A stretch of 64,000 bases of DNA from an uncultured Muribaculaceae bacterium (GCA_964447275.1 CAYURI010000002.1:17197-81196); one strand, 5' to 3'; positions 32,088-46,125 are shown, numbered from the stretch's first letter. The notes: a model not told the origin generated them from the sequence alone. Numbers and translations are program-made.

Positions 32088-32099
32088 GGGGGTGAAAAA

Positions 32100-32519
32100 A
32101 TGTTAAGAATTGAAGAAAATAATTATAATGTTGATGAATTTAATTATTTGTATGATGCTGTGGGTTGGGGTGCATATAGCAAAGAAATCTCTGAGCAAGC
32201 TCTAAGTAATAATATTTACTCAGTAAGTGTTTATGATGATAATAAAATTATTGGTTATGGAAGAATCATTGGTGATGGTGTTGTATTCCTTTACATTCAT
32301 GATGTTATGGTAATACCAGAATATCAATCAAAAAAGATTGGTACCCAAATAATGAATAAATTATTAGAAAAAATAAATGAGATAAAAAAAATTAACCCTA
32401 GCTTAAGAGTTTACTTAGGAGCATCTCTAAATAGAGAAGGGTTTTATGAAAAATTTGGGTTTGTTACTAGGGAACAATATGGTTTAGGAAGTGGCATGAT
32501 ATTAAATAACAAAAAATAA
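32100..32519 (+). CDS. GNAT family N-acetyltransferase
   Basis: IHDVMVIPEYQSKKIGTQIMNKLLEKI is the acetyl-CoA-binding motif A region. Confidence 0.6.
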   Translation: MLRIEENNYNVDEFNYLYDAVGWGAYSKEISEQALSNNIYSVSVYDDNKIIGYGRIIGDGVVFLYIHDVMVIPEYQSKKIGTQIMNKLLEKINEIKKINPSLRVYLGASLNREGFYEKFGFVTREQYGLGSGMILNNKK

Positions 32520-32531
32520 CGAAGAGTGATT

Positions 32532-33080
32532 ATGGAAAAGAACAAATTAATTATTTTAGGTGGCAATGCCAGTAATAATATTACTTGGCTAAAGAAGATG
32601 AAAAAAATTTATGAAAAGGATTATGATGTAATTACTATCTATTATGACCATTGGAATAGCGACAAGAAAATAGACTTTGATTTAGAACTTAAAAAAATCA
32701 GAAAAATAGTCATGGATCTTAATGATTATTATGTGCTAGCAAAATCAGTTGGATCAGTGATATCCTTAATTGGAATTGAAAGACAAATAATTAAGCCAAA
32801 AGGAATTATAATTTTAGGATTCCCATTAAGATATTTAGAAAACAACAATATAAATATAGATGCTACAATTAAAATGGCTTCTGCCAAAACTAAAGTGTTG
32901 GTAATTCAACAAAAGAATGATCCGGTGGGTAGTTATCGTGAAGTTGTTGAAAAATTACCTAATAATATAAAAACGGTTGAAATACCAGGCGTTTATCATG
33001 TTTATAGTAATATAAATTGTATAAAAAATCTAGTTGATGACTTTATAAAGCATTTAAAACAATGTTTTTTTATGCTATAA
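32532..33080 (+). CDS. Small alpha/beta serine hydrolase (YdeN/RBBP9-like Ser_hydrolase family)
   Basis: About 183 aa, a nucleophile-elbow-like AKSVGS, and a C-terminal His (YHVY). Confidence 0.4.
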   Translation: MEKNKLIILGGNASNNITWLKKMKKIYEKDYDVITIYYDHWNSDKKIDFDLELKKIRKIVMDLNDYYVLAKSVGSVISLIGIERQIIKPKGIIILGFPLRYLENNNINIDATIKMASAKTKVLVIQQKNDPVGSYREVVEKLPNNIKTVEIPGVYHVYSNINCIKNLVDDFIKHLKQCFFML

Positions 33081-33081
33081 T
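33073..33081 (+). promoter_or_regulatory. Extended -10 element TGCTATAAT overlapping the stop codon of the upstream gene
   Basis: TGnTATAAT sits upstream of an AGGAGA RBS and the first copy of the tandem gene pair. Confidence 0.4.
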
Positions 33082-33099
33082 ATCTTTAGGAGAATGTTT

Positions 33100-33396
33100 A
33101 TGGAAAAATTTAGAAAGAATATGGTAGACATTTTAGAAATAAATTTAGTTTTAGAATCCTATCATGATGATACGGCCACAGAATATGGTGATGAAGAAGT
33201 AAGAACAGAAGATGATCTGCAATTATTAAGAGAACAAAAAGACAATTTATCTGAAGCAGAAAAGATTAAAAGATCAGAAGACATTTTAGCCAGACTAAAT
33301 AAAGTGTTAGATGAAATAGGCAGAGAAAAGTTTATTTTTTATGATAATGGAAATATAGACTATACATATGTTAATCTACCTAATAAAGGAGAATAA
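33100..33396 (+). CDS. Small acidic protein, copy 1 of a tandem duplicate pair
   Basis: MEKFRKNMVDILEINLVLESYHDDTATEY.... High identity to the next ORF. Confidence 0.5.
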   Translation: MEKFRKNMVDILEINLVLESYHDDTATEYGDEEVRTEDDLQLLREQKDNLSEAEKIKRSEDILARLNKVLDEIGREKFIFYDNGNIDYTYVNLPNKGE

Positions 33397-33398
33397 TT

Positions 33399-33707
33399 AT
33401 GGAAAAGTTTAGAAAGAATATGGGGTATATACTAGAAATAAATTTAGCATTAGAATCTTATCATGATGACACAGCCACAGAATATAGAAGAGAAGAAATT
33501 GGGGTATATGATGACTTACAATTCCTGGAAGAGCAAAACAACAATTTATCTGAAGCAGAAAAGATTAAAAGATCAGAAGACATTTTAACTAGGCTAAATA
33601 CATTGCTAGATGAAATAGGTAGAGAAAAGTTTATTTTTTATAATGATGGTGGCATGGAATATACATATATTAATTTACATAATAAAGGAGATGGAAACAA
33701 TGGGTAA
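33399..33707 (+). CDS. Small acidic protein, copy 2 of a tandem duplicate pair
   Basis: MEKFRKNMGYILEINLALESYHDDTATEY..., collinear with copy 1. Confidence 0.5.
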   Translation: MEKFRKNMGYILEINLALESYHDDTATEYRREEIGVYDDLQFLEEQNNNLSEAEKIKRSEDILTRLNTLLDEIGREKFIFYNDGGMEYTYINLHNKGDGNNG

Positions 33708-34335
33708 AGATGATAAATCTTGGGGATATGCATCATACGATGTTGACCATCCTGATGATGAAAGATTAACCTATACCAGATATCAAGATAATGGTAGTGT
33801 TAATAAATATACTGACAATGGTAATGGCGGGCATAGTCATGATTATTGGAAAAGCGCGAACGACTATAATTCGGGCAAAGATCCAAATCAATCTAGGCGA
33901 GAAAGTAACGATAAGAAGAATCCATCTACAGGAGAGGTTCAGAGTGGATCAGGCTGTTATTTAACAACTGCATGTATGAAACATCATCCTGGCAGTTTCG
34001 ATGATAACTGTTATGAGCTTAGAGTATTGCGATGGTTTAGAGATAACTTTGTATCAGAAGAAGATAAAAAGCATTATTATGCAACTTCACCATTAATAGT
34101 TGCTGCTATTTCTTCAGGAGAAAATAGTGACTTAATATATGATTATATATATGATAATGTTATAGACTATTGTGTGACAGCTATCGAAAATGGTGAGTAT
34201 GAAAAGGCATATAATAGGTATAGAGATAGTATATTAAGTTTTGAAGAAACATTTATTAAAAAAAGCCTTCAAGAAGGACTAATTAGAGTGTTAAAAAACA
34301 GAGCGAGCCAAGCCGAAGATGATGAAAGGATATAA
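33691..34335 (+). CDS. Hypothetical protein with a Cys motif GCYLTTAC...DNCYELRVLRWFRDNF
   Basis: ATG at 33691 follows an AAAGGAG RBS and overlaps the stop of copy 2. The N-terminal third is polar and low-complexity (N/D/G/K-rich). Confidence 0.4.
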   Translation: METMGKDDKSWGYASYDVDHPDDERLTYTRYQDNGSVNKYTDNGNGGHSHDYWKSANDYNSGKDPNQSRRESNDKKNPSTGEVQSGSGCYLTTACMKHHPGSFDDNCYELRVLRWFRDNFVSEEDKKHYYATSPLIVAAISSGENSDLIYDYIYDNVIDYCVTAIENGEYEKAYNRYRDSILSFEETFIKKSLQEGLIRVLKNRASQAEDDERI

Positions 34336-34353
34336 GTCATATATCTTTTTTTA

Positions 34354-34362
34354 TGATATAAT
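34354..34362 (+). promoter_or_regulatory. Extended -10 element TGATATAAT
   Basis: Upstream of the frameshifted Nudix ORF. Confidence 0.3.
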
Positions 34363-34380
34363 GCTTATAAGATGATGTTT

Positions 34381-34859
34381 ATGTTAAACAAAATTATTTC
34401 TTTTATTTTAATGATGATAATAAAATATTATTACTTCATAATAATCCTTTAGATCCAACTCATGGTGGGGATTTTTGGTATACAGTAACTGGTGGCTTTG
34501 AAGACTATGATAAAACAGCTGAAGATGTAGTAAAAAGAGAGATAAAAGAAGAAACGAATCTAGATGTCAAAGAGGTTATATATTTAAATTGGATTCTTAA
34601 ATATAAAGATAAAGGGTTAAACTGTGTTGAATATGTATATATATCATTTGTTGAAGGTGGTAATATAAATTTAGATGAGTCTGAAAATATCGAGTATGAA
34701 TGGTGTAACATTGATGACTTTATTAAGAAAATTAGATGGTTCGGCGATTTAGAATTATTAAAAAAAGTATTAATTGATGGGATTAACAGAAAAGTGTATT
34801 TTTATGAAGAAAAGATTGAAAATTATTGCTTTAATTTTCAAACAATTAATAGGAATTAG
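34381..34859 (+). pseudogene. NUDIX hydrolase gene with a frameshift inside a T4-A-T4 tract near codon 10
   Basis: Frame A reads MLNKIISFIL then runs into a stop. From about 34410 the -1/+2 frame reads NDDNKILLLHNNPLDPTHGGDFWYTVTGGFEDYDKTAEDVVKREIKEETNLDV (complete Nudix box) through to TAG at 34857-34859. The shift falls in ttttatttta (34401-34410). Confidence 0.55.
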
Positions 34860-34871
34860 GAGATGAAAGAA

Positions 34872-35279
34872 ATGAAAGATAAAAAAATATGGGATGAACT
34901 TTATAATAAAGCAAAATCAGTAATTAATCCAAGAACAGTATCGCCATTTATTGAAGCTGGTGGTGTAGGGGCTGCAATTTTAACTGATAAAGGTAATATT
35001 TATGTTGGGGTTTGTATTGATACAGCTTGTACTTTAGGAATGTGTGCCGAAAGAAATGCTATAGCTAACATGATAACAAATGGCGAAAACAAAATAATTA
35101 AACTAGTTTGCGTATGCCAAGATGGATCAGTTGGTTCTCCGTGTGGAGCTTGCAGAGAATACTTAATGCAGTTAGATAAAGATAGCAAGAATATGGAAAT
35201 ATTAATTGATTGTGAAACCTATAAAATATTAAGACTAGAAGAACTAACTCCAGATTGGTGGGGTTATGATAGATTCTAA
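34872..35279 (+). CDS. Cytidine/deoxycytidine deaminase family zinc enzyme (Cdd-like; blasticidin-S-deaminase-like is an alternative)
   Basis: CAERNAI (H/C-A-E zinc/catalytic motif) and PCGACREYL (PCGxCRQ-like). Confidence 0.6.
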   Translation: MKDKKIWDELYNKAKSVINPRTVSPFIEAGGVGAAILTDKGNIYVGVCIDTACTLGMCAERNAIANMITNGENKIIKLVCVCQDGSVGSPCGACREYLMQLDKDSKNMEILIDCETYKILRLEELTPDWWGYDRF

Positions 35280-35357
35280 TACTTATGATTTAAAAATTCA
35301 TAATAGAGCATTTAAAATAATGCTTTTTTTATGATATACTTTAAATAGGTGATAAAA

Positions 35358-35831
35358 ATGATAATTGATTATGAAGATAAATATCAAGAAGAAATTAAAT
35401 GCTTATTAGTAGAATTGCAGGAATATATTGTTGCTATTGATAAAGAAAAATATAATATTATAACTCCAGGTTATAAAGAGTTATATTTTGCCAAAACGAT
35501 AAAGGAAGTAGAAGAAAATCACGGCAAGATTTTATTAGCTAAAGATGATGATAAGATTGTTGGATTAATTATCGGTTTAATTGAGGAACCACATAATGAA
35601 TATAATTTCAAGGCACCCAGAAGAGGCAGAATAACCGAGTTAATAGTTTCCAAAACTTGTCGTTCTAAAGGCCTTGGCAACAAGTTGTTAACTGCTATGG
35701 AAAGTCATTTAAAAAGTAGTGGTTGTAAAGCCATTTTAATTGAAGTATTTGGTTATAACGACTTGGCTTTTAATTTTTATAGCAAGTATGGTTATAATAC
35801 AAGAATGTATGATGTTATAAAAATTATATAA
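35358..35831 (+). CDS. GNAT family N-acetyltransferase
   Basis: ITELIVSKTCRSKGLGNKLLTAMESHL is the Q/RxxGxG/A motif A. Confidence 0.6.
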   Translation: MIIDYEDKYQEEIKCLLVELQEYIVAIDKEKYNIITPGYKELYFAKTIKEVEENHGKILLAKDDDKIVGLIIGLIEEPHNEYNFKAPRRGRITELIVSKTCRSKGLGNKLLTAMESHLKSSGCKAILIEVFGYNDLAFNFYSKYGYNTRMYDVIKII

Positions 35832-35842
35832 AGGAGAGTATT

Positions 35843-36460
35843 ATGGAAATAAAAACAATAGAATCAGAAGCTAAATTAAAAGAAGTATTTAACTTTATGT
35901 CAAAGCTATTTTATGATGAAGCCAAAGAGTATAATGAACATTATTTTACAATGTCAGAAAGATTTTCAGAAATGTCAGAACAATTTAAGAAAGATAATGC
36001 TTTATTACTTTATATGGAAGAGAATGGTGAAGTCATTGCGGCTTTAACTTCTAAAAACATGAATTTAGAAAAGCAAAAGATCACATTAGGAGTTATGGCT
36101 GTTTCTAAAGATCATCGAAGAAAAGGCTATGGCAAAGCACTTGTTTTAGAGCTTGAAAAAAGATGCCTTGAAAAAGGTATTAAACATATTGATTTAGGAG
36201 CTAGATATAGAGCCTGCCCTTTATATATCTCATTAGGTTATAAGCCACTATTAATGGTTCAAATATTTGATTTTGCAACTATTTATGATGTTAAGAATGC
36301 TAACACCTTAAATTTAAAGCCTGGTTTTGAATGGCAGGGGGATGCTTATGGTTTTGTTTTCTTTGAAGTTGACGAAGTAAAAGAAGAATACATCAAGCAT
36401 TTTGAGAACAATGTTAATAATTCTCAAGTACAATATATTTTTGAAAAAGATTTAATATAA
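35843..36460 (+). CDS. GNAT family N-acetyltransferase
   Basis: VMAVSKDHRRKGYGKALVLELEKRCLEKG. Confidence 0.6.
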   Translation: MEIKTIESEAKLKEVFNFMSKLFYDEAKEYNEHYFTMSERFSEMSEQFKKDNALLLYMEENGEVIAALTSKNMNLEKQKITLGVMAVSKDHRRKGYGKALVLELEKRCLEKGIKHIDLGARYRACPLYISLGYKPLLMVQIFDFATIYDVKNANTLNLKPGFEWQGDAYGFVFFEVDEVKEEYIKHFENNVNNSQVQYIFEKDLI

Positions 36461-36498
36461 TTAAAAGATGATATCATAGTTGTTATGAGGTGAATAAG

Positions 36499-36978
36499 AT
36501 GGCAGTAAAACTAAAAAAAGTTAATTTAAGAGATAAAACAATACTATGCAATTTATTGCAATTATATTTGCATGATATTAGCTATTATTTCCCAATTGAA
36601 TTTGATGACAACAAAGGTTCTTATTTATATGATGATATAGAAAAATATTTTAATAATCTAAATAATCATGCTTATTTTGTCAATAATTGTAATAGAATAT
36701 CGGGATTTATGCTTATTGATAAAATCGAAGAAACAATGATTATTCAAGAAATGTTTGTTTTAAATAATTATAAAAATAAAGGAATCGGAAAAAATGCTGT
36801 TTTTACAGCTTTAGACAAGTACAAGGGGAATTGGGTAATAAAGTCATTGCCAGGATCAATTCCGGCTGAGCAATTCTGGTTAAGGACTATAAAAGAATAT
36901 ACCAATGGCAATTTTAATGTTGAACATGTTGGTAAATATAATAGAGCTGTATTTACATTTAATTCAAGGAACTTTTAA
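36499..36978 (+). CDS. GNAT-like acetyltransferase
   Basis: MFVLNNYKNKGIGKNAVFTALDKY. ATG 36499 after GAGGTGA. Confidence 0.5.
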   Translation: MAVKLKKVNLRDKTILCNLLQLYLHDISYYFPIEFDDNKGSYLYDDIEKYFNNLNNHAYFVNNCNRISGFMLIDKIEETMIIQEMFVLNNYKNKGIGKNAVFTALDKYKGNWVIKSLPGSIPAEQFWLRTIKEYTNGNFNVEHVGKYNRAVFTFNSRNF

Positions 36979-37026
36979 AAAAACGTTAAACCGCTTAGTC
37001 GTTAATAAAAGAGGTAGGTGATTATT

Positions 37027-38592
37027 ATGATTACTCTTGGAAATCTAAATGTAGTATTACAAAAAGATTCTAGGATCCTATTAAAAGATTTTAATTTCAC
37101 TTTAAATAAAGGCGATAAAGTTGCTATTATAGGCGAAGAAGGTAATGGTAAAAGTACCTTATTAAAATTAATTTATGATGTTAAACTAATTGAATATTAT
37201 TGTGAATTTAGTGGCAATATAATAAAAAAAGGAATAAAAATTGGCTATCTAGAACAATCATTAAACTTAGATTGGTATAATTTTACAATAAATGAATATT
37301 TTTTAAAAGATTCAATCCTTGAAGATATAAATTTAGATAAATATAATAATTTAAATGATATTTCTACAATTTTAGCTAAAATGCATATGGATCCAGCAAT
37401 AGTTTATAGTTGCCAATTAATGGGCACCTTATCGGGCGGAGAAAAAATTAAGATTCAATTAGCAAAAATTTTGGCTATGAATGTAGATGTCCTTTTATTA
37501 GATGAACCAACAAACGACCTTGATATTAAGACTCTAGTTTGGTTAGAATATTTTATAAATAGTAGTTTGATTCCTATTATATTCATTTCTCATGATGAAA
37601 CTTTACTTGAAAATACTGCTAATGTTATTATTCATATTGAACAATTAAAAAGAAAGCAGTCGCCCAAGCATACCATAGAAAGAATCTCGTATCGTGACTA
37701 TATTCAAAAAAGGTTGGGTATGATTGAAAAACAAGGCCAAATCGCTAAAAAGCAAAGAGCTGAGCATCAAGAGCAAATGGAAAAATTTAGGCAAACGTAT
37801 CAAAAAGTAGAGTTTCAACAAAATACAATAAGTCGTTCCGATCCTCATGGAGCTGCTCTTTTAAAGAAAAAAATGAAAAGTTTAAAATCTCAAGAAAGAA
37901 GATACGAAAGAGAAAAAGAAAACTTTTTTGATATTCCAGAAATGGAAGAAGCAATTGGTGTTAATTTTGATGAAGTTTTTATCCCTAACAGAAAGAAGAT
38001 TTTAGATTTAGAAATTGATAATTTAAGTAGCCCAGAAAAAGTATTGGTCAAAAACATAAAATTAAATGTTAGCGGACCTGAACATATTGCTATTATAGGA
38101 GCAAATGGGGTTGGTAAAACCACTTTATTGAAAATAATATACCAAGAGCTCAAAGAAAGAAAAGATATAACGGTTGGATACATGCTACAAAATTATGATG
38201 ATTTATTAGATATTGATAAAACAGCAATTGATTTTATCAAAAATGATTCGTCAAAAGAAGAGATAACAAAAATTATGACATTCCTTGGATCTTTGAAGTT
38301 TACTCCTGAAGAAATGCAAGAAAAAGTTAAAGATTTATCTGGTGGTCAAAAAGCCAAAATATTAATTTTAAAATTAATATTAAATAAATGTGATGTTTTA
38401 ATTTTAGATGAGCCAACTCGAAATTTAAGCCCATTATCTAATCCAATAATAAGAAATATATTAAGCTTTTATAAAGGGGCAATAATAAGTGTATCTCATG
38501 ATCGTAAATATATAGAAGATGTTTGTGATACAATATACCAATTGACAAGCCAAGGATTAGCAAAATGTTATGAAATAAAATTAAAAAAATAA
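37027..38592 (+). CDS. ABC-F family ATPase (two fused NBDs with an inter-domain linker and no TMD). Its size and architecture resemble the antibiotic-resistance (ARE) ABC-F subgroup.
   Basis: NBD1: GEEGNGKSTL, LSGGEKIKIQLAKIL, LLLDEPTNDLD. Linker of about 100 aa, rich in K/E/Q/R. NBD2: GANGVGKTTL, LSGGQKAKILILKL, LILDEPTRNL. 521 aa. Confidence 0.75.
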   Translation: MITLGNLNVVLQKDSRILLKDFNFTLNKGDKVAIIGEEGNGKSTLLKLIYDVKLIEYYCEFSGNIIKKGIKIGYLEQSLNLDWYNFTINEYFLKDSILEDINLDKYNNLNDISTILAKMHMDPAIVYSCQLMGTLSGGEKIKIQLAKILAMNVDVLLLDEPTNDLDIKTLVWLEYFINSSLIPIIFISHDETLLENTANVIIHIEQLKRKQSPKHTIERISYRDYIQKRLGMIEKQGQIAKKQRAEHQEQMEKFRQTYQKVEFQQNTISRSDPHGAALLKKKMKSLKSQERRYEREKENFFDIPEMEEAIGVNFDEVFIPNRKKILDLEIDNLSSPEKVLVKNIKLNVSGPEHIAIIGANGVGKTTLLKIIYQELKERKDITVGYMLQNYDDLLDIDKTAIDFIKNDSSKEEITKIMTFLGSLKFTPEEMQEKVKDLSGGQKAKILILKLILNKCDVLILDEPTRNLSPLSNPIIRNILSFYKGAIISVSHDRKYIEDVCDTIYQLTSQGLAKCYEIKLKK

Positions 38593-38687
38593 CATCTTTT
38601 TTAGGGTGCTATTTTTTTAAATTTACTCATATATATTTTTAAATGATTAAAAGTACAATTTAGAAAAAGCTTCCCCATAAACCTTTT

Positions 38688-38716
38688 TTGACAAATAAAC
38701 CTAAATATGATAATAT
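38688..38716 (+). promoter_or_regulatory. Consensus sigma-A promoter (TTGACA, 17 nt, TAATAT) at the head of an approximately 170-nt leader upstream of the Erm-like gene
   Basis: TTGACA at 38688-38693 and TAATAT at 38711-38716. The leader contains short ORFs (for example MKDVENLLHEWQK, 38791-38832) and the inverted repeat ATGAAG...CTTCAT. Confidence 0.45.
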
Positions 38717-38891
38717 TTAACCGCAGTGATTCAATTCGCCCATTCGCGTGTTGCTGTCTTAGAAATTAATGATTCTTTTGGATCATAATAATGAAGGATG
38801 TTGAGAATCTTCTTCATGAATGGCAAAAATAAACCATAGTCAAAGAAACTTTTGGTTATTTTTTGCTATTTAGAGGAAGAAGGATATTATT

Positions 38892-39692
38892 ATGAATTTT
38901 AATAATAAAACAAATTATTTAGATCAGATTTTTTTGGTGGATGATTGTGTTGTTAAAACCTTTATTGAGGAGTCTAATTTAAATAAAACTGATATAGTTG
39001 TTGAGATAGGACCTGGTAAAGGTAATTTAACAAACTTAATTGCTCCGAAAGTAGAAAAACTATATTGCATAGAACTTGATGAAAGATTAAAACCAGACTT
39101 ATTAAAAACAAAAGAAAATAATCCAAATACAGAAATTATTTTTGGTAGTGCTTTAGATATTTTTATTCCAATATGCACAAAAATAATTACATCATTACCA
39201 TATAGCATCACAGAGCCTTTTATTGAAAAACTAATTAAGTGTGATTTTAATGAAGCAATTATGATCGTTGGTAATAAATATGCTAAAGGTGTAATGGAAT
39301 CACAACTTAATCGATTGAGTTTACTAACTAATTGTTTTTTTAAAACTGAAAAAATAATGGAAATAATTCCAGATGCTTTCTTTCCTAAGCCTAGAGTAAT
39401 GTCAGCCATGGTAAAAATGATTCCTTTAGAAGCAAACGAAATAGAAGATTTAAAACTATTAATATTTAGATTTATGTTTATTTATCGCTCACAAAAAGTA
39501 AAAAATGCTTTAATGGAATCTTTAATAAGAGCTAAATCTTTTAAAGAAGAAACACTTACTAAAAAAATGAGTAAAGAAATTATAAAAAATCTCGATATAT
39601 CAAATGATTTGTTAGCAAAAAAGTTTGAGGTTTGTACAAATGAAGACTTAGAAGTTTTATATCGTCAGATTGAAAAAATAAATATTTTTTGA
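38892..39692 (+). CDS. rRNA adenine N6-methyltransferase, KsgA/Erm superfamily. The motifs lean Erm-like (23S rRNA MLS-resistance type).
   Basis: QIFLVDD (QNFL-like), EIGPGKGNLT (GKG as in Erm, versus GLGALT in KsgA), ITSLPY (S/N-I/L-P-Y catalytic motif), FFPKPRVMSAMV. 266 aa. Confidence 0.5.
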   Translation: MNFNNKTNYLDQIFLVDDCVVKTFIEESNLNKTDIVVEIGPGKGNLTNLIAPKVEKLYCIELDERLKPDLLKTKENNPNTEIIFGSALDIFIPICTKIITSLPYSITEPFIEKLIKCDFNEAIMIVGNKYAKGVMESQLNRLSLLTNCFFKTEKIMEIIPDAFFPKPRVMSAMVKMIPLEANEIEDLKLLIFRFMFIYRSQKVKNALMESLIRAKSFKEETLTKKMSKEIIKNLDISNDLLAKKFEVCTNEDLEVLYRQIEKINIF

Positions 39693-39708
39693 TAGTGAGG
39701 TGATTATT

Positions 39709-40266
39709 TTGTTATATAAAGATATAAAAACTCCTGAAGAGTTATTAAAATTTATGGAAGAGAATATTACTTATGGTTTTATTACTAAAAATGGTAAAAA
39801 GTATACTGATCCATCTTCAAAAGTGTGGCAAAAAGATTGGTATAGTAAATGTATTGTTCAAACTGGTAAAGAAGTATTAAAAACTAAAATTGGTACTTGT
39901 TGGGACCAAGTTGAATTAGAAAGATTATGGTTTAAAGAACATAATTATTCATTTAAAACTATTTTTATGATATTTAGTTCTAATAAAATAAATAACCTTC
40001 CTACTCATACATTCTTAATATATAAAAAAGCTAATAAATATTATTGGTTTGAGCATGCTTTTTATATTAATAAAGGTATCCATCAATTTAATAGTTATAA
40101 AGAAGCTATTACATATGTTAAACATCAACAACTAGATTATGCTATTAATAATAACAAAATAGATAAATCTTATTATAGATTATTAAAAACTAATGAGTAT
40201 AATGAAATACCTAATAGTTTAACAGTAGGTGAATATTTAGATTGGGTAACTAAAAACAACCATTAA
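39709..40266 (+). CDS. Hypothetical protein (start uncertain; GTG 39700 or TTG 39709)
   Basis: ORF directly after the Erm-like gene. Contains a Cys (GTCWDQ) and a His (LPTHTF) that could form a catalytic dyad. No firm family. Confidence 0.35.
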   Translation: MLYKDIKTPEELLKFMEENITYGFITKNGKKYTDPSSKVWQKDWYSKCIVQTGKEVLKTKIGTCWDQVELERLWFKEHNYSFKTIFMIFSSNKINNLPTHTFLIYKKANKYYWFEHAFYINKGIHQFNSYKEAITYVKHQQLDYAINNNKIDKSYYRLLKTNEYNEIPNSLTVGEYLDWVTKNNH

Positions 40267-40267
40267 A

Positions 40268-40300
40268 AAAAGCAAGATTTTTATATTTCTTGCTTTTGTT
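40268..40300. terminator. Bidirectional terminator
   Basis: AAGCAAGA-tttttatatt-TCTTGCTT hairpin followed by a T-run, between convergent genes. Confidence 0.5.
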
Positions 40301-40311
40301 TGTTATATAGT

Positions 40312-41439
40312 TTAGTTATTAGGTGTAGGAGAAGGTGAATATGTTAATGTGGCTTCGTCATTATTATCTTCAGTTATAACAATTTTACCACTTTTTACAG
40401 CTTCTATATATGCATCCATAAGAGCAAGTATTTCATTATCAATTAAAGTTGCCATTTCATCTTTACTAATTATTTCTGCCAATTCATATAAATTATATTT
40501 TGAAGAGTTGTTGGCTTTGATGGTTACATCCTGCAAAAGAGTGGCTGCAGACCATAATGCATTAACTATTTCCTCTTTTATAAATAGTTTTATTATTGGG
40601 TACATATCTTTGAATGCTGTTATTTCTAATTTGTTATAATTTCCACCATTATTTATAAAAATCATTTCAGTGATAGTTAAAAGAATCGTGCTGTTTTTTC
40701 TTACTAAATCATTATCCTTTTTTTTAATTGAATTATTTATATCGTTAACTATGCTTTCAACCAAATTTAGGGTATCAATCCCCGGATAGTTTTCAAATCC
40801 ACCTGTTTCAAAAATTTTGTATGATTCTGGATTATTAAAATAAACATTATCCGGGGTGCTATTAAATATTTCATTTATTCCAAACCCTACGGTAACTGTA
40901 TACGAATTTATAAAGTTATGTATACAGAAAAGGCCTTCCTCCTTTGATACCACTTGATTTGATTCCCCAATATTATCAAAACAACCACACAAGTTTTTGA
41001 CAATATTTAGTGGTGGAAGACTGCTATACCTAAATGAGAGTTCGCTACTTTTATTGCCTTCCAATCTCTTGAAGTATTCTTGAGCTACAATTTCTAACCT
41101 TTTTTCTTCTTCTTCTGTTGGCAAAAATAAAAAATAATTATTTATAATAGGAGTTGCACTTACTTCTGGTGTTATTAAACTTGCGTCAACAGGTGTTACA
41201 TCTGCGGTAGGAGTAGGACTTGTTTCAACAGGATTGGCAATTGTTCCAGTTTCATTACTTACCACTTGAGTAACCTTTTTAGCATCAGCAGCTGGCGCTG
41301 AAGAAGCATCAACTTTTTTTGGAGTACAACCATAAGTTGTTAAAAACAAACTTGCGCTAAGGAAACAAAGGATTTTTTTAATAAGTAGTTTAAAACTTAT
41401 CTTTGAATCAAAAGGTTTTATACTTTCTACTTTTTTCAT
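40312..41439 (-). CDS. Lipoprotein with a Thr/Pro/Ala-rich linker and a C-terminal globular domain
   Basis: MKKVESIK... start after an AAGGGGGAA RBS. Lipobox LTTYGCTPK. Linker SAPAADAKK...TSPTPTADVTPVDAS. Confidence 0.5.
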   Translation of the reverse strand: MKKVESIKPFDSKISFKLLIKKILCFLSASLFLTTYGCTPKKVDASSAPAADAKKVTQVVSNETGTIANPVETSPTPTADVTPVDASLITPEVSATPIINNYFLFLPTEEEEKRLEIVAQEYFKRLEGNKSSELSFRYSSLPPLNIVKNLCGCFDNIGESNQVVSKEEGLFCIHNFINSYTVTVGFGINEIFNSTPDNVYFNNPESYKIFETGGFENYPGIDTLNLVESIVNDINNSIKKKDNDLVRKNSTILLTITEMIFINNGGNYNKLEITAFKDMYPIIKLFIKEEIVNALWSAATLLQDVTIKANNSSKYNLYELAEIISKDEMATLIDNEILALMDAYIEAVKSGKIVITEDNNDEATLTYSPSPTPNN

Positions 41440-41544
41440 TTCATAATTCCCCCTTAGAATTAACTGCGTAAATATTAACACGAAAATAGTAAAATGTCAA
41501 CATTTGACACTCTAAATACGATTTTTTGTCAAAGCAATTTTTGT

Positions 41545-41572
41545 TTGAAAAATCATATTATCGTGATATACT
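41545..41572 (+). promoter_or_regulatory. Promoter with TTGAAA -35 and extended -10 TGATATACT, at the head of the long co-directional cluster
   Basis: TTGAAA at 41545-41550, 16-nt spacer, TG at 41564-65, TATACT at 41567-72. An AAAGGTTGG RBS and the ATG at 41598 follow. Confidence 0.4.
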
Positions 41573-41597
41573 TTTTATAGTAAAGGTTGGTAGTTAT

Positions 41598-42281
41598 ATG
41601 AAATACAGATTTTTTATTATACCGATTTTAGTTTTTGTGTTACTTTTTGCTTGCCCAAAAGTATATGCTACTGATGATTGCAACTATGCTGAGCAGAATA
41701 GACTTAATGCTTTAGCAAGCAATGTTAAAGCAAGTTATAGCGTTTCTGAAGAACCAGAAGTCTATTTTACAATTAATATTAATAATTTAACTGGTGAAAT
41801 CTATGCTATGGTAAAAAGCAGTGAACAATCAGAATATACCGAGTATAAATATAGTGAAGAAAATGCTGGAAGTATATCTTTCACTTCTAGTGAGATATAT
41901 AAAAAGGTTGATTTTTCCATATTAATATATGCTTATAATCCTTATTGTGATCGTAATGAATTAAGAACCATAACAGTTACGACACCAAGATATAATCCGT
42001 ATTATAATTATAGTATTTGCTCTGATGTAAGAGATTTTTATTTATGCCAAAAATGGAACGATTTTGAATTATCTTATGATGAATTAGTGAATCGTGTTAA
42101 TGATTATAAAGAATCTTTAAAAGATGATGATGTTAAAGAAGAAGAAACAAAAGATTCACTTGTTAAACAAGTGATCGATTTTGTTTCCAAACATTATATT
42201 TATTTTGTTAGTGGGGCTGGAGTTATTGTAGTAACTTTAAGTGTAGTATTAATAATTAAAAGAAAAAGGAGAGTCTTGTAG
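41598..42281 (+). CDS. Secreted protein with a C-terminal TM anchor; first gene of the pilus/T4SS-like cluster
   Basis: Signal peptide MKYRFFIIPILVFVLLFACPKVYA. C-terminal hydrophobic anchor VSGAGVIVVTLSVVLII followed by KRKRRVL. Confidence 0.5.
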   Translation: MKYRFFIIPILVFVLLFACPKVYATDDCNYAEQNRLNALASNVKASYSVSEEPEVYFTININNLTGEIYAMVKSSEQSEYTEYKYSEENAGSISFTSSEIYKKVDFSILIYAYNPYCDRNELRTITVTTPRYNPYYNYSICSDVRDFYLCQKWNDFELSYDELVNRVNDYKESLKDDDVKEEETKDSLVKQVIDFVSKHYIYFVSGAGVIVVTLSVVLIIKRKRRVL

Positions 42282-45200
42282 TGAAAAATAAAATTCCAAA
42301 ATTATTAATCTTTGGGTTTTTATCATTTATTGCTTTTGCAATAAATGCTTTTGCTGCTATAACAATATCGCCAACTGGTCAAAGTTATACTGTTAGCAGT
42401 GATTTTGGTGATAAAACTTTAACAAGAACAATTAAAACTTTTAAAACAATTGACAATGACTCGGCTTTCCATGTTTTACCAGATAAATTAATGCCAGGTG
42501 ATGCTGGAGCAGCTAGTTTATATGATTGCGAAAATGGTGGCTATGCTTCATCATCAGAAATTGCGATTATTCAAAGTGGTAAGAAAAATGGCTATAATGA
42601 TATGGAAATTCAAATCGCTTTATATTGCCAAGCGACAACTGGTACATCAGCTAAATCAGATGATGAGTTTTATCAAACGATTTGTTCAAGATATGTAGCT
42701 GGTGAAGATGTTATAGGCAATGGCTTAATGCAAATAAATGATCCTTCAGGATATTTTTTAAGAGGATTACAATTATATAAAAGTGGGGCTTCTACTACGT
42801 ATTATGAAGCAACGACTGGATTTACTGGAATAACTCTTGAATTTGATTGCTCTTCAGGCAAATGTTATTATCCAAATCAAACTGACAAAGTATTGTTAAG
42901 TAGTATTGAGGGATTGAATATTCCTAGTAATGCCAAAATATTATCTGTTACTGAAGAAGGAGCGGATAGTATTGATGTTAGTTATGGTTCAAGAACTGTT
43001 GGCACAGTTTCTTTTAGTGTTGTCGCAACACCAAATAAAAGTATTTGCCCAACTTGTGCTTATGTACAAATAATTGTTGAATATGAATCATCTGATGTTT
43101 TATCTCAACCAGCTTTATGCGCTCCAACGGCAGCAGCTGGTTCTGGAGTTAACATAACTAATAGTAGTAATATGCTCGTTTATAAAACCACGGGTAGTAT
43201 TAAAAAAATATTTACAATTTATTCTGGTAGTGGAAATACGGAAAACAACACAGATACATACAATTCTGTTTTTTATCCACATAGTGTTATTGTTGACTAT
43301 GAAAATAATGATGTTGTTTTAGCAAACTCTATAACAACTATTCCTAATGCTAAAACAACCTGTGGTATTAACACTATTGCTCCAGGAGGATCATTAAAAG
43401 CAACTAGTAATAATGCCATATCTGATGATGAAGAAGATCCATTTAAAGATATATCAACTGATTATTCTAAAATAACAACTGGAACTGCTTGTGATGGCTC
43501 ATCATACAAAGTTTCATCTGATGAAGTAAGTGGTAATGTTGATACCATAATAAATAATCAATATTGTAATATATATTGTAAAGAAGATATAAAAATTGTT
43601 GTGCCTTCTAAAGCAAGAGCAGCTAGTAATGATACTGAAAAAATATTTTCAGGCAGATATTTTACCTTACCAGACCTAAAAGTAGAAGGCAGAAAAACTT
43701 GCGTAGCTGATATTGATATTGAACAATTTTTCTATGATGTTTATGGCAATAAAATAAATATTGGTGATGTATTGTCAGGAAAAACAAGTACAAGAGATCT
43801 ATTAAATAGTGGCGGTGGCAGCAATTATAAGTATATGAATGCTACAAATTGGGGAACCGCCCTAGAGACTGCATATATCGGAATGATAAATAAAACCTAC
43901 ATTGACGAAATTCCATGCAGAAGATATTTTGGGTTTTCTTGTTCTGGTTATGGCGTACCTCTTTGTCCGGGCAAAAAAGTTGATGTTGGCGGTGGCAAAT
44001 GCTGTGATGTTAAAGTTATATTTAACGAAAAAATTTATTCTAATTGTACTTCGAAAATACCCAAATCATATGCCGACTCTATTACAGCTTTATATAGCGT
44101 GTTAATGTTTAAACATTATGAAATTGTGGTACCGACGGCTAAATACGATCCTGGGACTGGTGTAACAATTGAGGAGCAAGATGATAACGGAAACATTTCG
44201 TATACGGATATATATAATTCATTTAATGCAACAAATGCACAATTTGTAAGATATGGAATCCCAAAAACTGTAAACTCAACTAATACAAAAGTTGAATTTG
44301 TTGAGTTGCCTCCAACGGAATATAAAACTAATTCTGATAATAATGAAAAGACTTGTTACCCATTGGATGAGCCTTCACAACCAGATGGCGCAGTATCATG
44401 GGAATGTCTATGCCATACTCAATCGTTAGAAGAAGCAATGCTTGCTTGCGGTCTAAAAGCTACTGGTGATCAAGTTGGCTCGGCAGCAGCAGCGGTAAAG
44501 CATCATATAGCAGTTTACGATGCTATGCGTGATGCTAACTATGCGGCAACCAAGAAGTCTATCGAAGATATATTAGCTTGCTCAGAAGCTTATAAATATG
44601 TTGTATATAATATTAAAACACCAGAAGTAACATTTAATTATTGTGATGATTATAAAATTGATTATAAGTTTACTGGTGGATTAAATGAGAATGTTAAAGT
44701 AGAGTATTGTAAGAATGGTGCTACTTCAATTGATTTTGCTTGTATAGGTGAAGGCCAAACTCAAGAAGCGCCAATTGATGAAATTGATTTTTCGAAATTT
44801 AATCGTCAAATTAGTTATTATGATTGTGGTGATAGCTATTGTAATAGTACAACTATTAAAACTATAACAATACCAATTAATAAATCAGTTAAATTTGAAT
44901 ATACCGCTTCATATCGTGCTAATACAGATACTACGTATTATTCAATTGTACCAAGCGGAGTAGTGAGAACTAAACCAACAAATACTAATTCAATTTTACT
45001 TGGTGAAGATGGTAAGGTATATCCATTATCAATTGGTCAAGTAGGTAATAAAGCTTGTAATTATTCATTTACCTTTAATACAATTGGTGAAACACATTAT
45101 GAAAATTGTTTTCCAGAATTAGAAAAACCAATGGTTTGTAGTTTTGTTTTATATAACGAAATAGTTAATCCAGGAAGTGATGATACAAGTAAAGGTTTAA

Positions 45201-45637: not shown

Positions 45638-45653
45638 GGGGGGAAGATAAAAA

Positions 45654-46109: not shown

Positions 46110-46125
46110 AAAGGAGGAATAGAAA

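What the first reader, a model, noticed from the sequence alone, without database searches (positions are those of the whole stretch)
37027..39692. ABC-F ATPase next to an Erm-like rRNA methyltransferase with a promoter-leader region: candidate MLS-type resistance cassette
The 521-aa ABC-F has the compact architecture of the ARE subgroup (Vga/Lsa/Sal/VmlR-like): no N-terminal arm, an inter-NBD linker of about 100 aa, and no C-terminal extension. The gene 300 nt downstream encodes a KsgA/Erm-superfamily methyltransferase. Its motifs lean toward Erm (EIGPGKGNLT with GKG; T-S-L-P-Y catalytic tetrad; FFPKPRV). The intergenic region has a consensus TTGACA-17-TAATAT promoter, a leader of about 170 nt with short ORFs (for example MKDVENLLHEWQK) and inverted repeats. 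This recalls erm attenuators. Ribosome protection plus target methylation side by side would give macrolide-lincosamide-streptogramin/pleuromutilin resistance. A housekeeping KsgA paralog is the alternative.
Basis: partly seen in the sequence, partly recalled or inferred. Interest (0 to 1): 0.6.

Follow-up and report, generated by a model that had tools for sequence, protein, structure and literature searches.

The report
ABC-F plus inserted Dim1-like methyltransferase
A ribosome-protection-type ATPase sits next to a recently inserted, unusually regulated rRNA-methyltransferase-like gene; the gene is not an Erm macrolide-resistance gene but belongs to an uncharacterised archaeal-Dim1-like family from uncultured gut bacteria.

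Summary
Both genes, the promoter-like site and a structured leader are present at the stated coordinates.

- **ABC-F (37027-38592).** It is intact and has a VmlR-like build. It scores just under the NCBIfam "ribosomal protection-like" cutoff and fits no named resistance class. It lacks its own leader and sits at the same chromosomal position in sister genomes.
- **Methyltransferase (38892-39692).** It is not Erm-like. It fails both the Erm and KsgA HMM cutoffs. In sequence and predicted fold it is closest to archaeal Dim1. Its clade has S/A-L-P-Y in place of the catalytic N-L-P-Y motif.
- **Insertion.** Together with a 299-nt promoter/leader region, the methyltransferase forms a 1.1-kb insertion that sister genomes lack.
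- **Leader.** A 13-codon ORF pairs with the methyltransferase translation start region in a long hairpin (z = -5.7). No relative has this leader.
- **Neighbours elsewhere.** Relatives usually sit beside a longer Dim1-like paralogue with canonical motifs, in 7-deazapurine-type gene clusters. Others sit in an rRNA-modification block, often next to unrelated ABC-Fs.

Best reading, at about 0.4 confidence: a ribosome-stalling-inducible rRNA methyltransferase of unknown target and drug specificity, captured beside an intrinsic ARE-like ABC-F. MLS specificity is unsupported.

The parts
34863..36978 (+). Upstream genes that appear to share an operon with the ABC-F. They are a cytidine-deaminase-like gene (34863-35279) and three GNAT acetyltransferases (35349-35831, 35843-36460, 36490-36978). 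Only 48 nt separate the last GNAT from the ABC-F.
   Evidence: ORFs. Pfam and NCBIfam hits are generic and all fall below resistance-family cutoffs. The genes are syntenic with L088/L090.
37027..38592 (+). ABC-F ATPase of 521 aa with ARE-like architecture: two intact nucleotide-binding domains, a linker of about 120 aa, no arm and no C-terminal extension.
   Evidence: NCBIfam NF000355 scores 367.5 bits against a cutoff of 380. Vga/Msr/CplR score 205-238 bits against cutoffs of 680-780. The best solved match is VmlR (6ha8, 5e-47), followed by 8buu (ExpZ; VmlR2 by my reading) at 3e-44 and Uup at 9e-43. The linker gives no ABC_tran_Xtn hit. dN/dS is 0.15-0.21. The position is conserved in L088, L090 and L091.
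38574..39692 (+). A 1119-bp segment present in the window but absent from sister genome L088. It contains the last 19 nt of the ABC-F ORF, the 299-nt intergenic region and the whole methyltransferase ORF.
   Evidence: blastn maps L088 6991-8547 to window 37017-38573 and L088 8553-9143 to window 39693-40284. The junctions were read. No target-site duplication or terminal inverted repeats were found.
38576..38625 (+). AU-rich inverted repeat spanning the ABC-F stop codon (19-nt arms, 89% complementary). At best it is a weak terminator.
   Evidence: I6. The terminator scan did not call it.
38688..38716 (+). Sigma-70-type promoter-like site, TTGACA-17-(TG)TAATAT.
   Evidence: Function is inferred, not shown.
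38723..38786 (+). Two small 5' leader hairpins, at 38723-38757 and 38769-38786. The second contains the weak GGA Shine-Dalgarno of the leader ORF.
38791..38832 (+). Leader ORF encoding MKDVENLLHEWQK plus its stop codon. Its start region and codons 6-13 form the 5' side of the long hairpin.
   Evidence: Sequence and pairing table. No homologue was found in any fetched locus, so translation is inferred.
38808..38880 (+). Main leader hairpin. The 5' arm (38808-38829) lies inside the leader ORF. The 3' arm (38860-38880) covers positions -32 to -12 of the methyltransferase, including GAGGAAGA. A lower stem pairs 38782-38802 with 38883-38895, that is, leader AUG region with methyltransferase AUG region.
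   Evidence: Free energy is -29.7 kcal/mol. z = -5.7 and z = -3.5 for the 179-nt leader. No Rfam family matches.
38879..38884 (+). Best-spaced Shine-Dalgarno of the methyltransferase (GAAGGA, 7 nt from the AUG). It sits at the base of the hairpin and is only partly paired.
   Evidence: Unpaired probability is about 0.58 when 38722-38915 is folded. Sequestration is therefore partial.
38892..39692 (+). Methyltransferase of 266 aa in the RrnaAD (KsgA/Dim1/Erm) superfamily. It belongs to an uncharacterised Dim1-like clade with motif IV S/A-L-P-Y.
   Evidence: dN/dS is 0.21-0.23.
39709..40266 (+). Downstream gene of 185 aa with a weak transglutaminase-like DUF553 hit. Its own GAGGTGA Shine-Dalgarno and TTG start follow the methyltransferase stop within about 16 nt. 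In sister genomes it directly follows the ABC-F.

Best explanation
**The ABC-F.** It is a chromosomal, vertically inherited, ARE-type (VmlR-like) ribosome-binding ATPase. It is expressed as the last gene of a deaminase/GNAT operon.

**The insertion.** In this lineage only, a 1.1-kb segment was inserted directly behind the ABC-F. It carries a promoter-like site, a leader of about 168 nt and a 266-aa SAM-dependent methyltransferase.

**The methyltransferase.** It belongs to an uncharacterised clade closest to archaeal Dim1/KsgA. The clade keeps the SAM-binding motifs, the Q..F motif X and the stacking tyrosine. It replaces the motif IV Asn with Ser or Ala.

**Most likely mechanism (inferred, not shown).**
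1. The long hairpin pairs the 13-codon leader ORF with the region just 5' of, and around, the methyltransferase start codon. This keeps methyltransferase expression low.
2. A ribosome paused on the leader ORF, for example by a translation inhibitor, holds the hairpin open.
3. The open hairpin allows initiation, or read-through, into the methyltransferase.
4. The methyltransferase then methylates an rRNA adenine and alters drug binding, complementing target protection by the ABC-F.

The target nucleotide and the drug class are unknown. Nothing indicates A2058 or MLS drugs.
For: - **ABC-F.** The nucleotide-binding domains are intact and the linker is VmlR-like. The top NCBIfam hit is the ribosomal-protection-like family.
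- **Methyltransferase fold and residues.**
  - The predicted two-domain Dim1/KsgA fold has pLDDT 91.9, and the top structural hits are archaeal Dim1.
  - Q12, F14, E38, G40, G42, E61, P103, Y104, F163 and P165 are invariant or nearly so in the family.
  - The Q and F of motif X are essential in ErmS (PMC7998614). The motif IV aromatic residue is strictly required in Erm and KsgA (PMC11789486).
- **Selection.** dN/dS of 0.21-0.23 indicates purifying selection.
- **Insertion.** It is absent from sister genomes that share the flanks.
- **Leader.** The hairpin is exceptional (z = -5.7) and specific to this locus, and its 5' arm lies inside the short ORF.
- **Recurrent pairing.** Members of this methyltransferase family sit beside ABC-Fs of at least four unrelated types (25-30% identity to each other). 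One case, in Clostridium sp. CAG:524, is another ARE-like ABC-F followed by a TetR regulator and an MMPL protein.
- **Precedent.** Synergy between a ribosome-protecting ABC-F and an rRNA methyltransferase is documented for C. difficile CplR and Erm (PMC10201436).
Against: - No relative carries the leader, so covariation and leader-peptide conservation cannot be assessed.
- The leader ORF has only a weak Shine-Dalgarno and no recognised arrest motif.
- The best-spaced methyltransferase Shine-Dalgarno is only partly paired. Modelling a ribosome on the leader changes its accessibility only modestly (0.58 to 0.66).
- The methyltransferase passes neither the Erm nor the KsgA cutoff. No member of its clade has a known function.
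- In most genomes the family is constitutively operonic, with gaps of 0-100 nt, next to rRNA-modification genes. That looks like housekeeping.
- The ABC-F is below its family cutoff and scores only slightly better against ARE models than against Uup or YbiT. It lacks the 5' attenuator typical of characterised ARE genes.
- The neighbouring GNAT and deaminase genes show no specific resistance-family match.
Confidence: 0.4

Rival explanations
1. Housekeeping or ribosome-biogenesis reading. The methyltransferase is this lineage's KsgA/Dim1-type small-subunit dimethylase, or a paralogue acting on another rRNA site during assembly. The ABC-F is a general translation factor. The leader hairpin serves mRNA stability or feedback control rather than drug sensing.
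For: - KsgA is the best-scoring curated family (134.8 bits), and the fold is Dim1-like.
- About half of the 88 loci show a conserved block: an RlmK/I-like methyltransferase, a RluA-family pseudouridine synthase, this methyltransferase, and an ABC-F carrying ABC_tran_Xtn.
- The family is widespread and vertically conserved in uncultured low-GC gut Bacilli.
- The window ABC-F has no attenuator, and homologues at 52-60% identity (the best 120 listed of 7,997 scored) include proteins that sources name from Lachnospiraceae, Clostridiales and other Clostridia.
- E. coli ksgA is reported to be translationally autoregulated (from my own knowledge, not checked here).
Against: - In this lineage the gene is an insertion that sister genomes lack at the site. 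Among close relatives it sits in different places.
- It fails the KsgA equivalog cutoff. It lacks the motif IV Asn and the motif III Asp.
- Many genomes carry a second, longer Dim1-like protein with canonical motifs. That protein is the better KsgA-equivalent candidate.
Confidence: 0.3
2. The methyltransferase is not a resistance enzyme. It is an orphaned component of a two-methyltransferase module belonging to a 7-deazapurine (preQ0-type), glycosyl and carbamoyl pathway. Its role would be tailoring a nucleoside or hypermodifying tRNA or rRNA.
For: - Six related loci were examined: L097/L002, L003, L006/7, L094, L095 and L096.
- In each, the short methyltransferase lies immediately next to a 388-414-aa Dim1-like protein with canonical motifs: directly downstream of it in five loci and convergent with it in L006/L007.
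- In most of them the pair sits at the 3' end of a cluster. The clusters contain QueC, Vut_1, GT2, carbamoyltransferase, HAD and Methyltransf_11, with or without FolE, QueD and QueE.
- At least 11 of the 120 listed homologues have the same longest-contig length as a long-partner homologue, which I take to mean they share a contig.
Against: - In the window the partner and the whole cluster are missing, yet the gene is under purifying selection and has acquired its own promoter and leader.
- The C-terminal RNA-binding-type domain of the Dim1 fold is retained.
- Self-resistance methyltransferases also sit inside biosynthetic clusters, so this context fits the best explanation equally well.
Confidence: 0.12
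3. The region is an Erm-type 23S A2058 methyltransferase plus an ARE ABC-F, forming an MLS/PLSA resistance cassette with an erm-style attenuator.
For: - The gene belongs to the same superfamily as Erm (PF00398).
- The leader ORF and hairpin have attenuator-like anatomy.
- The ABC-F has an ARE-like build.
Against: - The broad Erm HMM scores 101.2 bits against a cutoff of 212. Every class-specific Erm model scores 58.5 bits or less against cutoffs of 320-675.
- All 41 family members score better against KsgA than against Erm.
- ErmE ranks 27th and ErmC' 36th in the fold search, behind Dim1 and KsgA.
- Motif IV is S-L-P-Y rather than N-I/L-P-Y.
- The pair is not a mobile unit. There is no match in plasmid or phage collections, and sister genomes lack the methyltransferase.
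Confidence: 0.05
4. The juxtaposition and the leader have no function. The methyltransferase is a decaying hitch-hiker left by a recombination event in a variable region.
For: - The locus is a variable cargo region whose gene content differs among sister genomes.
- A neighbouring NUDIX gene is frameshifted.
- The window methyltransferase alone has Ile at the otherwise invariant His13.
Against: - The ORF is intact, with dN/dS of about 0.22 against three relatives.
- The hairpin has z = -5.7.
- The essential Q, F and Y residues are retained.
Confidence: 0.08

Closest known systems
Archaeal/eukaryotic Dim1 (DIMT1) and bacterial KsgA/RsmA, the 16S/18S rRNA A1518/A1519 N6,N6-dimethyltransferases
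   Same: - The superfamily is the same (PF00398).
- The predicted two-domain fold is the same.
- The best sequence and structure matches are here: M. jannaschii Dim1 at 4e-32 and P. horikoshii DIMT1.
- It shares a Dim1-like D/G-Q-H-F motif X, motif I GxGxG, the motif II Glu, the motif IV L-P-Y and the motif VIII F-x-P-x-P.
   Different: - It falls below the KsgA equivalog cutoff (134.8 against 171).
- The motif IV Asn is replaced by Ser or Ala, and the motif III Asp by Asn or Ser, throughout the clade.
- It is accessory and mobile in this lineage.
- It is preceded by a promoter and a structured leader.
- It is often accompanied by a second, longer Dim1-like paralogue with canonical motifs.
Erm 23S rRNA A2058 methyltransferases with leader-peptide attenuation (ermC, ermB type)
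   Same: - The superfamily is the same.
- A short upstream ORF lies within a hairpin that overlaps the methyltransferase translation start region.
- Pairing with a ribosome-protecting ABC-F has a precedent in CplR plus Erm in C. difficile (PMC10201436).
   Different: - It is not a member by HMM (101 against 212), by structure ranking or by motif IV.
- It has a single long hairpin rather than the four-segment ermC switch.
- It has no known arrest motif.
- The target and the drug are unknown.
cat-86 / cmlA-type translation attenuation (comparison from my own knowledge)
   Same: - There is one hairpin.
- Its 5' arm lies in a short leader ORF.
- Its 3' arm overlaps the ribosome-binding region of the resistance gene.
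- A ribosome stalled in the leader would open the hairpin.
   Different: - The regulated gene is a methyltransferase.
- The leader peptide is unrelated.
- The Shine-Dalgarno is only partly sequestered.
- No experimental or comparative support exists.
VmlR (ARE2), VmlR2 and CplR (ARE1) genome-encoded ARE ABC-F proteins
   Same: - It has two ABC domains, no arm and no C-terminal domain.
- The linker has the same length as the VmlR antibiotic-resistance domain, and VmlR is the best solved match.
- It is chromosomally encoded and vertically inherited, as described for intrinsic ARE ABC-Fs in PMC10201436.
   Different: - It is below the generic family cutoff and far below every named class cutoff.
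- Its margin over Uup and YbiT is small.
- It has no 5' leader or attenuator (48-nt gap).
- It is co-operonic with GNAT acetyltransferases.

Membership tests
Erm (23S rRNA A2058 methyltransferase) | Scores above the curated Erm HMM cutoff (NF000499, at least 212 bits, or a class-specific model) | tested here: not met
   NF000499 scores 101.2 bits. The best class model (erm_SHROVE) scores 58.5 against 320. All 41 clade members match Erm more weakly than KsgA.
Erm (23S rRNA A2058 methyltransferase) | Closer to Erm than to KsgA/Dim1 in sequence and structure | tested here: not met
   By PDB phmmer, archaeal Dim1 scores 115 bits, ErmAM 60 and ErmC' 39. By Foldseek, Dim1 is rank 1, ErmE rank 27 and ErmC' rank 36.
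Erm (23S rRNA A2058 methyltransferase) | Motif IV N-(I/L)-P-Y | tested here: not met
   The window protein has S-L-P-Y. At this position the 120 homologues have Ala (62), Ser (54) or Cys (3), and none of the three commonest residues is Asn.
Erm (23S rRNA A2058 methyltransferase) | Methylates A2058 and confers MLSB resistance | not testable with these tools
   This needs rRNA modification mapping and MIC measurements.
KsgA/RsmA/Dim1 (small-subunit A1518/A1519 dimethyltransferase) | Scores above the TIGR00755 equivalog cutoff (171 bits) | tested here: not met
   The score is 134.8 bits. The best E-value in the clade is 4.7e-49.
KsgA/RsmA/Dim1 (small-subunit A1518/A1519 dimethyltransferase) | Two-domain KsgA/Dim1 fold with SAM-binding motifs I and II, motif X Q..F and the motif IV aromatic residue | tested here: met
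   The AlphaFold2 model has pLDDT 91.9. The top Foldseek hits are Dim1/DIMT1/KsgA. The key residues are conserved.
KsgA/RsmA/Dim1 (small-subunit A1518/A1519 dimethyltransferase) | Canonical catalytic motif IV Asn and motif III Asp | tested here: not met
   The window protein has S101 and S86. The clade has A/S and N/S at these positions. The adjacent long paralogue in L002, L003 and L006 does have ANLPY and GDAL.
KsgA/RsmA/Dim1 (small-subunit A1518/A1519 dimethyltransferase) | Stable single-copy housekeeping gene; no other ksgA in the genome | tested here: inconclusive
   - The gene is absent from this site in three sister genomes and sits elsewhere in one of them.
- No second RrnaAD gene is present in the 64-kb window.
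- The rest of the genome could not be searched.
ARE-type ABC-F (ribosomal protection) | Two ABC domains with intact Walker A/B, signature and H-loop motifs; no transmembrane domain | tested here: met
   The motifs were read in the translation. PF00005 matches twice.
ARE-type ABC-F (ribosomal protection) | Scores above the NF000355 cutoff (380 bits) or a named ARE class cutoff | tested here: not met
   NF000355 scores 367.5, just below the cutoff. Vga scores 237.7 against 725, Msr 217.9 against 680 and CplR 205.4 against 780.
ARE-type ABC-F (ribosomal protection) | Extended inter-domain linker (antibiotic-resistance domain), no arm, no C-terminal domain | tested here: met
   The linker (about residues 206-325) aligns with few gaps to VmlR residues 180-300 and to VmlR2. 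It gives no ABC_tran_Xtn hit.
ARE-type ABC-F (ribosomal protection) | Antibiotic-responsive 5' leader or attenuator upstream of the ABC-F | tested here: not met
   Only 48 nt separate the ABC-F from the preceding GNAT gene. Sister loci have gaps of about 35 nt or less.
ARE-type ABC-F (ribosomal protection) | Confers resistance by displacing a drug bound at the peptidyl-transferase centre or exit tunnel | not testable with these tools
   This needs MIC measurements and ribosome-binding assays.
Leader-peptide translation attenuator (erm/cat/cmlA type) | Short ORF on the same transcript, overlapping one arm of a hairpin whose other arm covers the downstream translation initiation region | tested here: met
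   The ORF is at 38791-38832. The 5' arm (38808-38829) pairs with 38860-38880, which is -32 to -12 of the methyltransferase. The lower stem pairs the two AUG regions. Shine-Dalgarno occlusion is only partial.
Leader-peptide translation attenuator (erm/cat/cmlA type) | Conservation or covariation of the peptide and helices in relatives | tested here: inconclusive
   No homologous leader exists in 97 fetched loci or in the metagenome scan. Nothing can be compared.
Leader-peptide translation attenuator (erm/cat/cmlA type) | Drug-dependent ribosome stalling and induction | not testable with these tools
   This needs toeprinting and reporter assays.

The most novel reading that the evidence does not exclude
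The short S/A-L-P-Y Dim1-like methyltransferase may be one half of an undescribed two-methyltransferase module. The other half is a long paralogue with canonical motifs. The module is attached to gene clusters for 7-deazapurine (preQ0), glycosyl and carbamoyl chemistry in uncultured gut Bacilli, where it would serve as self-immunity against a ribosome-targeting nucleoside product. In the window a solo copy would have been captured behind an ARE-type ABC-F and placed under a ribosome-stalling leader. That would make it a new class of inducible rRNA-methylation resistance, distinct from Erm, against an unknown gut-made antibiotic.
Probability: 0.2. Interest if true: 0.75.

Novelty: new variant of a known kind. 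Interest (0 to 1): 0.45.

Why it matters
- **If the methyltransferase is a drug-inducible rRNA modifier.** It would define a resistance methyltransferase lineage outside Erm that current resistance-gene HMMs miss. It sits in gut commensals, next to a target-protection ABC-F.
- **If it is housekeeping.** It would show that a large group of uncultured gut Bacilli use archaeal-type Dim1 paralogues with an altered catalytic motif.
- **Either way.** The recurrent pairing of this family with ABC-Fs and with 7-deazapurine clusters gives concrete, testable leads. In itself the window locus is a moderately interesting, uncharacterised variant. It is not a demonstrated MLS cassette.

Tried and rejected
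- **Rfam.** A scan of the whole window at gathering thresholds and of the leader at E up to 10 found only a tRNA at 6986-7058 and chance-level hits. The leader is therefore not a known riboswitch, T-box or leader family.
- **Plasmid and phage collections.** megablast of window 30000-50000 gave no match. There is no evidence for a known mobile element.
- **Leader homologues.**
  - No comparable leader turned up in 88 related loci: upstream gaps are mostly 0-100 nt, and the few longer upstream regions fold no better than shuffles.
  - blastn-short against all loci found only the same strain.
  - A metagenome scan found one relative, and it has no leader.
  - Covariation analysis was therefore impossible.
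- **Intrinsic terminator in the leader.** The scan found none. The inner stem has only two G-C pairs, so transcription attenuation is possible but less likely than translational control.
- **Insertion boundaries.** No target-site duplications or terminal repeats were found.
- **A second RrnaAD gene in the window.** tblastn found none.
- **Organism names.** Exact-sequence cluster look-ups returned no organism or informative names.
- **Literature on the motif IV Asn.** Searches for ErmC' N101 and for the P. horikoshii DIMT1 N132A mutant returned nothing. My recollection that ErmC' N101 is dispensable (Maravic et al. 2003) could not be verified and is used only as a lead.
- **"Resistance island".** I considered and rejected this label for the upstream GNAT and deaminase genes. 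All their matches are generic and far below resistance-family cutoffs.

Full report
**1. What is in the window**

The window is about 28% G+C and codes almost entirely on the + strand. It carries chromosomal genes: TypA/BipA, Tex, FtsX permeases and one tRNA. The flagged region holds three elements.
- A 521-aa ABC-F at 37027-38592.
- A 299-nt spacer.
- A 266-aa RrnaAD-family methyltransferase at 38892-39692.

The spacer contains TTGACA-17-(TG)TAATAT at 38688-38716. It also contains the 13-codon ORF MKDVENLLHEWQK at 38791-38832 and a long hairpin.

**2. The ABC-F**

Evidence for an ARE-type protein:
- Both nucleotide-binding domains have intact Walker A, signature, Walker B and H-loop motifs (translation).
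- The best curated family is the "ribosomal protection-like ABC-F" model NF000355, at 367.5 bits. That is just under its 380-bit cutoff.
- Named ARE classes score 205-238 bits against cutoffs of 680-780. Housekeeping models (YbiT-like, Uup, EttA) score 177-201 bits.
- The best solved relatives are VmlR (5e-47) and the chain deposited as ExpZ in 8buu (3e-44), which I take to be VmlR2; Uup follows closely at 9e-43.
- The linker of about 120 aa aligns with few gaps to the VmlR and VmlR2 antibiotic-resistance domain.
- The linker gives no ABC_tran_Xtn hit. The 790-aa ABC-F of related loci does give that hit.

The architecture is therefore ARE-like, but membership in any characterised class is not established.

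Evidence against a classical inducible resistance gene:
- Only 48 nt separate the ABC-F from the preceding GNAT gene, so it has no attenuator of its own.
- In sister genomes the orthologue (69-82% identity) sits in the same synteny: FtsX, two minus-strand genes, a 140-aa gene, variable cargo, the ABC-F, a 185-aa gene, a minus-strand 377-aa gene, a 227-aa gene, a 1115-aa gene and DUF5411.
- It is thus an intrinsic, vertically inherited gene under purifying selection, with dN/dS of 0.15-0.21.

**3. The methyltransferase is not Erm-like**

- KsgA (TIGR00755) scores 134.8 bits against a cutoff of 171. The broad Erm model scores 101.2 against 212. Class-specific Erm models score 58.5 bits or less.
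- All 41 sampled clade members behave the same way.
- Against solved structures, archaeal Dim1 proteins lead: M. jannaschii at 4e-32 and P. horikoshii DIMT1 at 6e-31. Bacterial KsgA scores 1e-19 to 1e-10, ErmAM 3e-15 and ErmC' 6e-9.
- An AlphaFold2 model (pLDDT 91.9) gives the same order in Foldseek. Dim1 and DIMT1 come first, then human DIMT1 and bacterial KsgA, with ErmE at rank 27 and ErmC' at rank 36.

**4. An uncharacterised clade with an altered catalytic motif**

- The protein search returned 199 homologues, of which the best 120 (46-100% identity, about 264 aa) were listed and analysed, almost all unnamed.
- A scan of one genome per species found 124 relatives. All are in uncultured low-GC gut Bacilli labelled "Tenericutes", "Erysipelotrichaceae", Clostridium sp. 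CAG:524, Mycoplasma sp. CAG:956 and similar.
- Across the 120 homologues the motif IV position that is Asn in KsgA, Dim1 and Erm is Ala (62), Ser (54) or Cys (3), and Asn is not among the three commonest residues at that position.
- The motif III Asp is replaced by Asn or Ser.
- Motif I (EIGPGKG), the motif II Glu, motif X (D-Q-H-F), L-P-Y and F-x-P-x-P are conserved.
- The window protein alone has Ile in place of the motif X His. It keeps the Q and F shown to be essential in ErmS (PMC7998614). It also keeps the motif IV Tyr described as strictly required (PMC11789486).
- An exhaustive HMMER search of 1.84 billion representatives found only 55 at E of 1e-30 or better. It also showed that x-S-L-P-Y recurs in more distant Dim1-like proteins, whereas Ala is specific to the close clade.
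- dN/dS of 0.21-0.23 against three relatives shows the window gene is under purifying selection.

I infer an active methyltransferase of unknown target.

**5. The adjacency is a recent insertion**

- Relative to L088 the window has 1119 extra bases (38574-39692). These are the last 19 nt of the ABC-F ORF, the spacer and the methyltransferase up to its stop codon.
- The downstream 185-aa gene keeps its GAGGTGA Shine-Dalgarno and TTG start.
- L090 and L091 also lack the methyltransferase at this site.
- In the MAG that provides L088, the methyltransferase orthologue (70% identity) lies on another contig (L003).
- The closest relative (L002/L097, 79% identity) shares the downstream genes. Its similarity to the window starts exactly at the methyltransferase ATG.
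- No repeats mark the insertion boundaries.
- The region does not match any plasmid or phage record.

**6. The leader**

- No relative has it. Upstream gaps are 0-100 nt in nearly all of the 88 loci. The 299-nt spacer matches only the same strain. The metagenome scan added one relative, and it has no leader.
- Judged on its own, the structure is strong.
  - The hairpin has a free energy of -29.7 kcal/mol.
  - The 179-nt leader gives z = -3.5.
  - The -110..+12 region gives z = -5.7, against -1.5 to +0.4 for nine homologous upstream regions.
  - It is the third most stable of 62 upstream regions in the window.
- The 5' arm consists of leader codons 6-13 and the stop codon. The 3' arm covers -32 to -12 of the methyltransferase (GAGGAAGA). 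A lower stem pairs the two start-codon regions.
- There are weak points.
  - The best-spaced Shine-Dalgarno (GAAGGA, 38879-38884) sits at the base of the stem and is only partly paired.
  - Placing a ribosome on the leader raises its accessibility only modestly.
  - The leader ORF has a weak Shine-Dalgarno.
  - No known arrest motif is present.
  - Covariation cannot be tested.
- No Rfam family matches. A canonical terminator is not called, although a hairpin followed by a U-rich tail leaves transcription attenuation possible.

**7. Context of the family elsewhere**

I clustered the neighbours in 88 loci. Three patterns emerged.

*An rRNA-modification block.* The gene order is an RlmK/I-like methyltransferase, a small protein, a RluA-family pseudouridine synthase, a small protein, this methyltransferase and an ABC-F.

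*ABC-F neighbours.*
- An ABC-F lies within a few genes in 30 of the 88 loci.
- These ABC-Fs are of at least four unrelated types, 25-30% identical to the window protein.
- One type is 790 aa, with ABC_tran_Xtn and an unassigned C-terminal extension.
- One is an ARE-like 528-535-aa type in Clostridium sp. CAG:524, followed by a TetR regulator and an MMPL protein.
- One is a 543-aa type.
- The fourth is the window's own 521-aa type.
- I interpret this as several independent juxtapositions, which suggests a ribosome-related functional link.

*A paired long paralogue.*
- In L097/L002, L003, L006/7, L094, L095 and L096 the short methyltransferase lies immediately next to a 388-414-aa Dim1-like protein with canonical motifs (QHF, GDAL, ANLPY): directly downstream of it in five loci and convergent with it in L006/L007.
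- In most of these loci the pair sits at the 3' end of a cluster. The clusters contain QueC, Vut_1, GT2, carbamoyltransferase, HAD and Methyltransf_11, with or without FolE, QueD and QueE.
- The long family has 653 detected homologues.
- In at least 11 cases a long-family and a short-family homologue report the same longest-contig length, which I take to mean they share a contig.
- A recent genome-mining preprint on 7-deazapurine pathways does not mention rRNA methyltransferases.

**8. Interpretation**

- The Erm/MLS label is not supported.
- The data fit best with a non-Erm, Dim1-like rRNA methyltransferase that was captured as a solo gene behind an intrinsic ARE-like ABC-F. It acquired a promoter and a leader whose anatomy suggests induction by ribosome pausing. 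Confidence is about 0.4.
- A housekeeping or ribosome-biogenesis role is the main rival, at about 0.3.
- A role tied to the 7-deazapurine clusters is a further possibility, at about 0.12.
- The documented synergy of CplR with Erm in C. difficile (PMC10201436) shows that pairing protection with methylation is biologically sensible. No specificity can be assigned here.
- Novelty: this is a new variant of known kinds. Interest is moderate.

Noticed in passing
L097 381-9797 (same contig as L002); L094 3077-9807; L095 2012-5991; L096 1-9789; L006/L007 90-10055; L003 2784-7205: A recurrent gene cluster in uncultured gut Bacilli. It contains QueC, with or without FolE, QueD and QueE, together with a Vut_1 transporter, GT2 glycosyltransferases, carbamoyltransferase (sometimes fused to DcsG_N), a HAD hydrolase and Methyltransf_11. 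In five of the six loci it ends in a pair of Dim1-like methyltransferases, a long one of 388-414 aa with canonical NLPY followed by a short one with S/A-LPY; in L006/L007 the pair lies next to the cluster with the two genes convergent. This could be a 7-deazapurine nucleoside biosynthetic cluster with self-resistance, or a nucleic-acid hypermodification pathway.
   Followed up: partly
L013 7140-9512 and about 25 other loci (cluster c4): A 790-aa ABC-F, with ABC_tran_Xtn and NF000355 at 433 bits, carries a C-terminal extension of about 270 aa with no Pfam match. It is conserved directly downstream of the short methyltransferase, in a block with an RlmK/I-like methyltransferase and a RluA-family pseudouridine synthase.
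   Followed up: partly
window 34372-34860: A NUDIX hydrolase gene that is intact in sister locus L088 (3905-4384) is frameshifted near its 5' end in the window. It is either a pseudogene or an assembly error.
   Followed up: partly
window 31665-40266 compared with L088, L090, L091 and L097: The stretch between the conserved 140-aa gene and the minus-strand 377-389-aa gene is a variable cargo region. Different genomes carry NUDIX, deaminase, GNATs, a radical SAM enzyme, a 752-aa PPDK_N/PEP-utiliser protein (L091), or the 7-deazapurine cluster with the methyltransferase pair (L097).
   Followed up: partly
window 33094-33396 and 33399-33707: Two adjacent genes of about 100 aa are similar to each other. 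Single regions of L090 and L008 match both, which indicates a tandem duplication.
   Followed up: no
window 41526-63291: A conserved + strand cluster includes a 1118-aa secreted-looking protein, DUF5411, a homologue of an RcpC-like gene, a T2SSE-type ATPase (by synteny with L090 and L097), a TraG/VirB4-like P-loop protein (57313-59097) and a 1187-aa SpoIID-domain protein. It may be a pilus or secretion apparatus. It is shared with sister genomes.
   Followed up: no
L006/L007 about 7890-7990: The 445-nt region upstream of the short methyltransferase in L006 contains a tRNA-like sequence (GCUCAAUUGGUAGAGCA...GGUUCGAUUCC). That explains the stable fold of this region.
   Followed up: no
window 38928-38930 (methyltransferase residue 13): The window methyltransferase has Ile at the motif X position that is His in 119 of 120 homologues (D-Q-H-F becomes D-Q-I-F). 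Ile or Val occurs sporadically at this position in more distant Dim1-like proteins.
   Followed up: partly
L008 and L091 record titles: Two contigs of assembly GCA_964493665.1 are titled "uncultured Muribaculaceae bacterium". They are syntenic with this roughly 28% G+C window, whose relatives are otherwise titled Bacilli, Clostridia or Tenericutes. This is probably a taxonomic mislabel or a mis-binned MAG.
   Followed up: no
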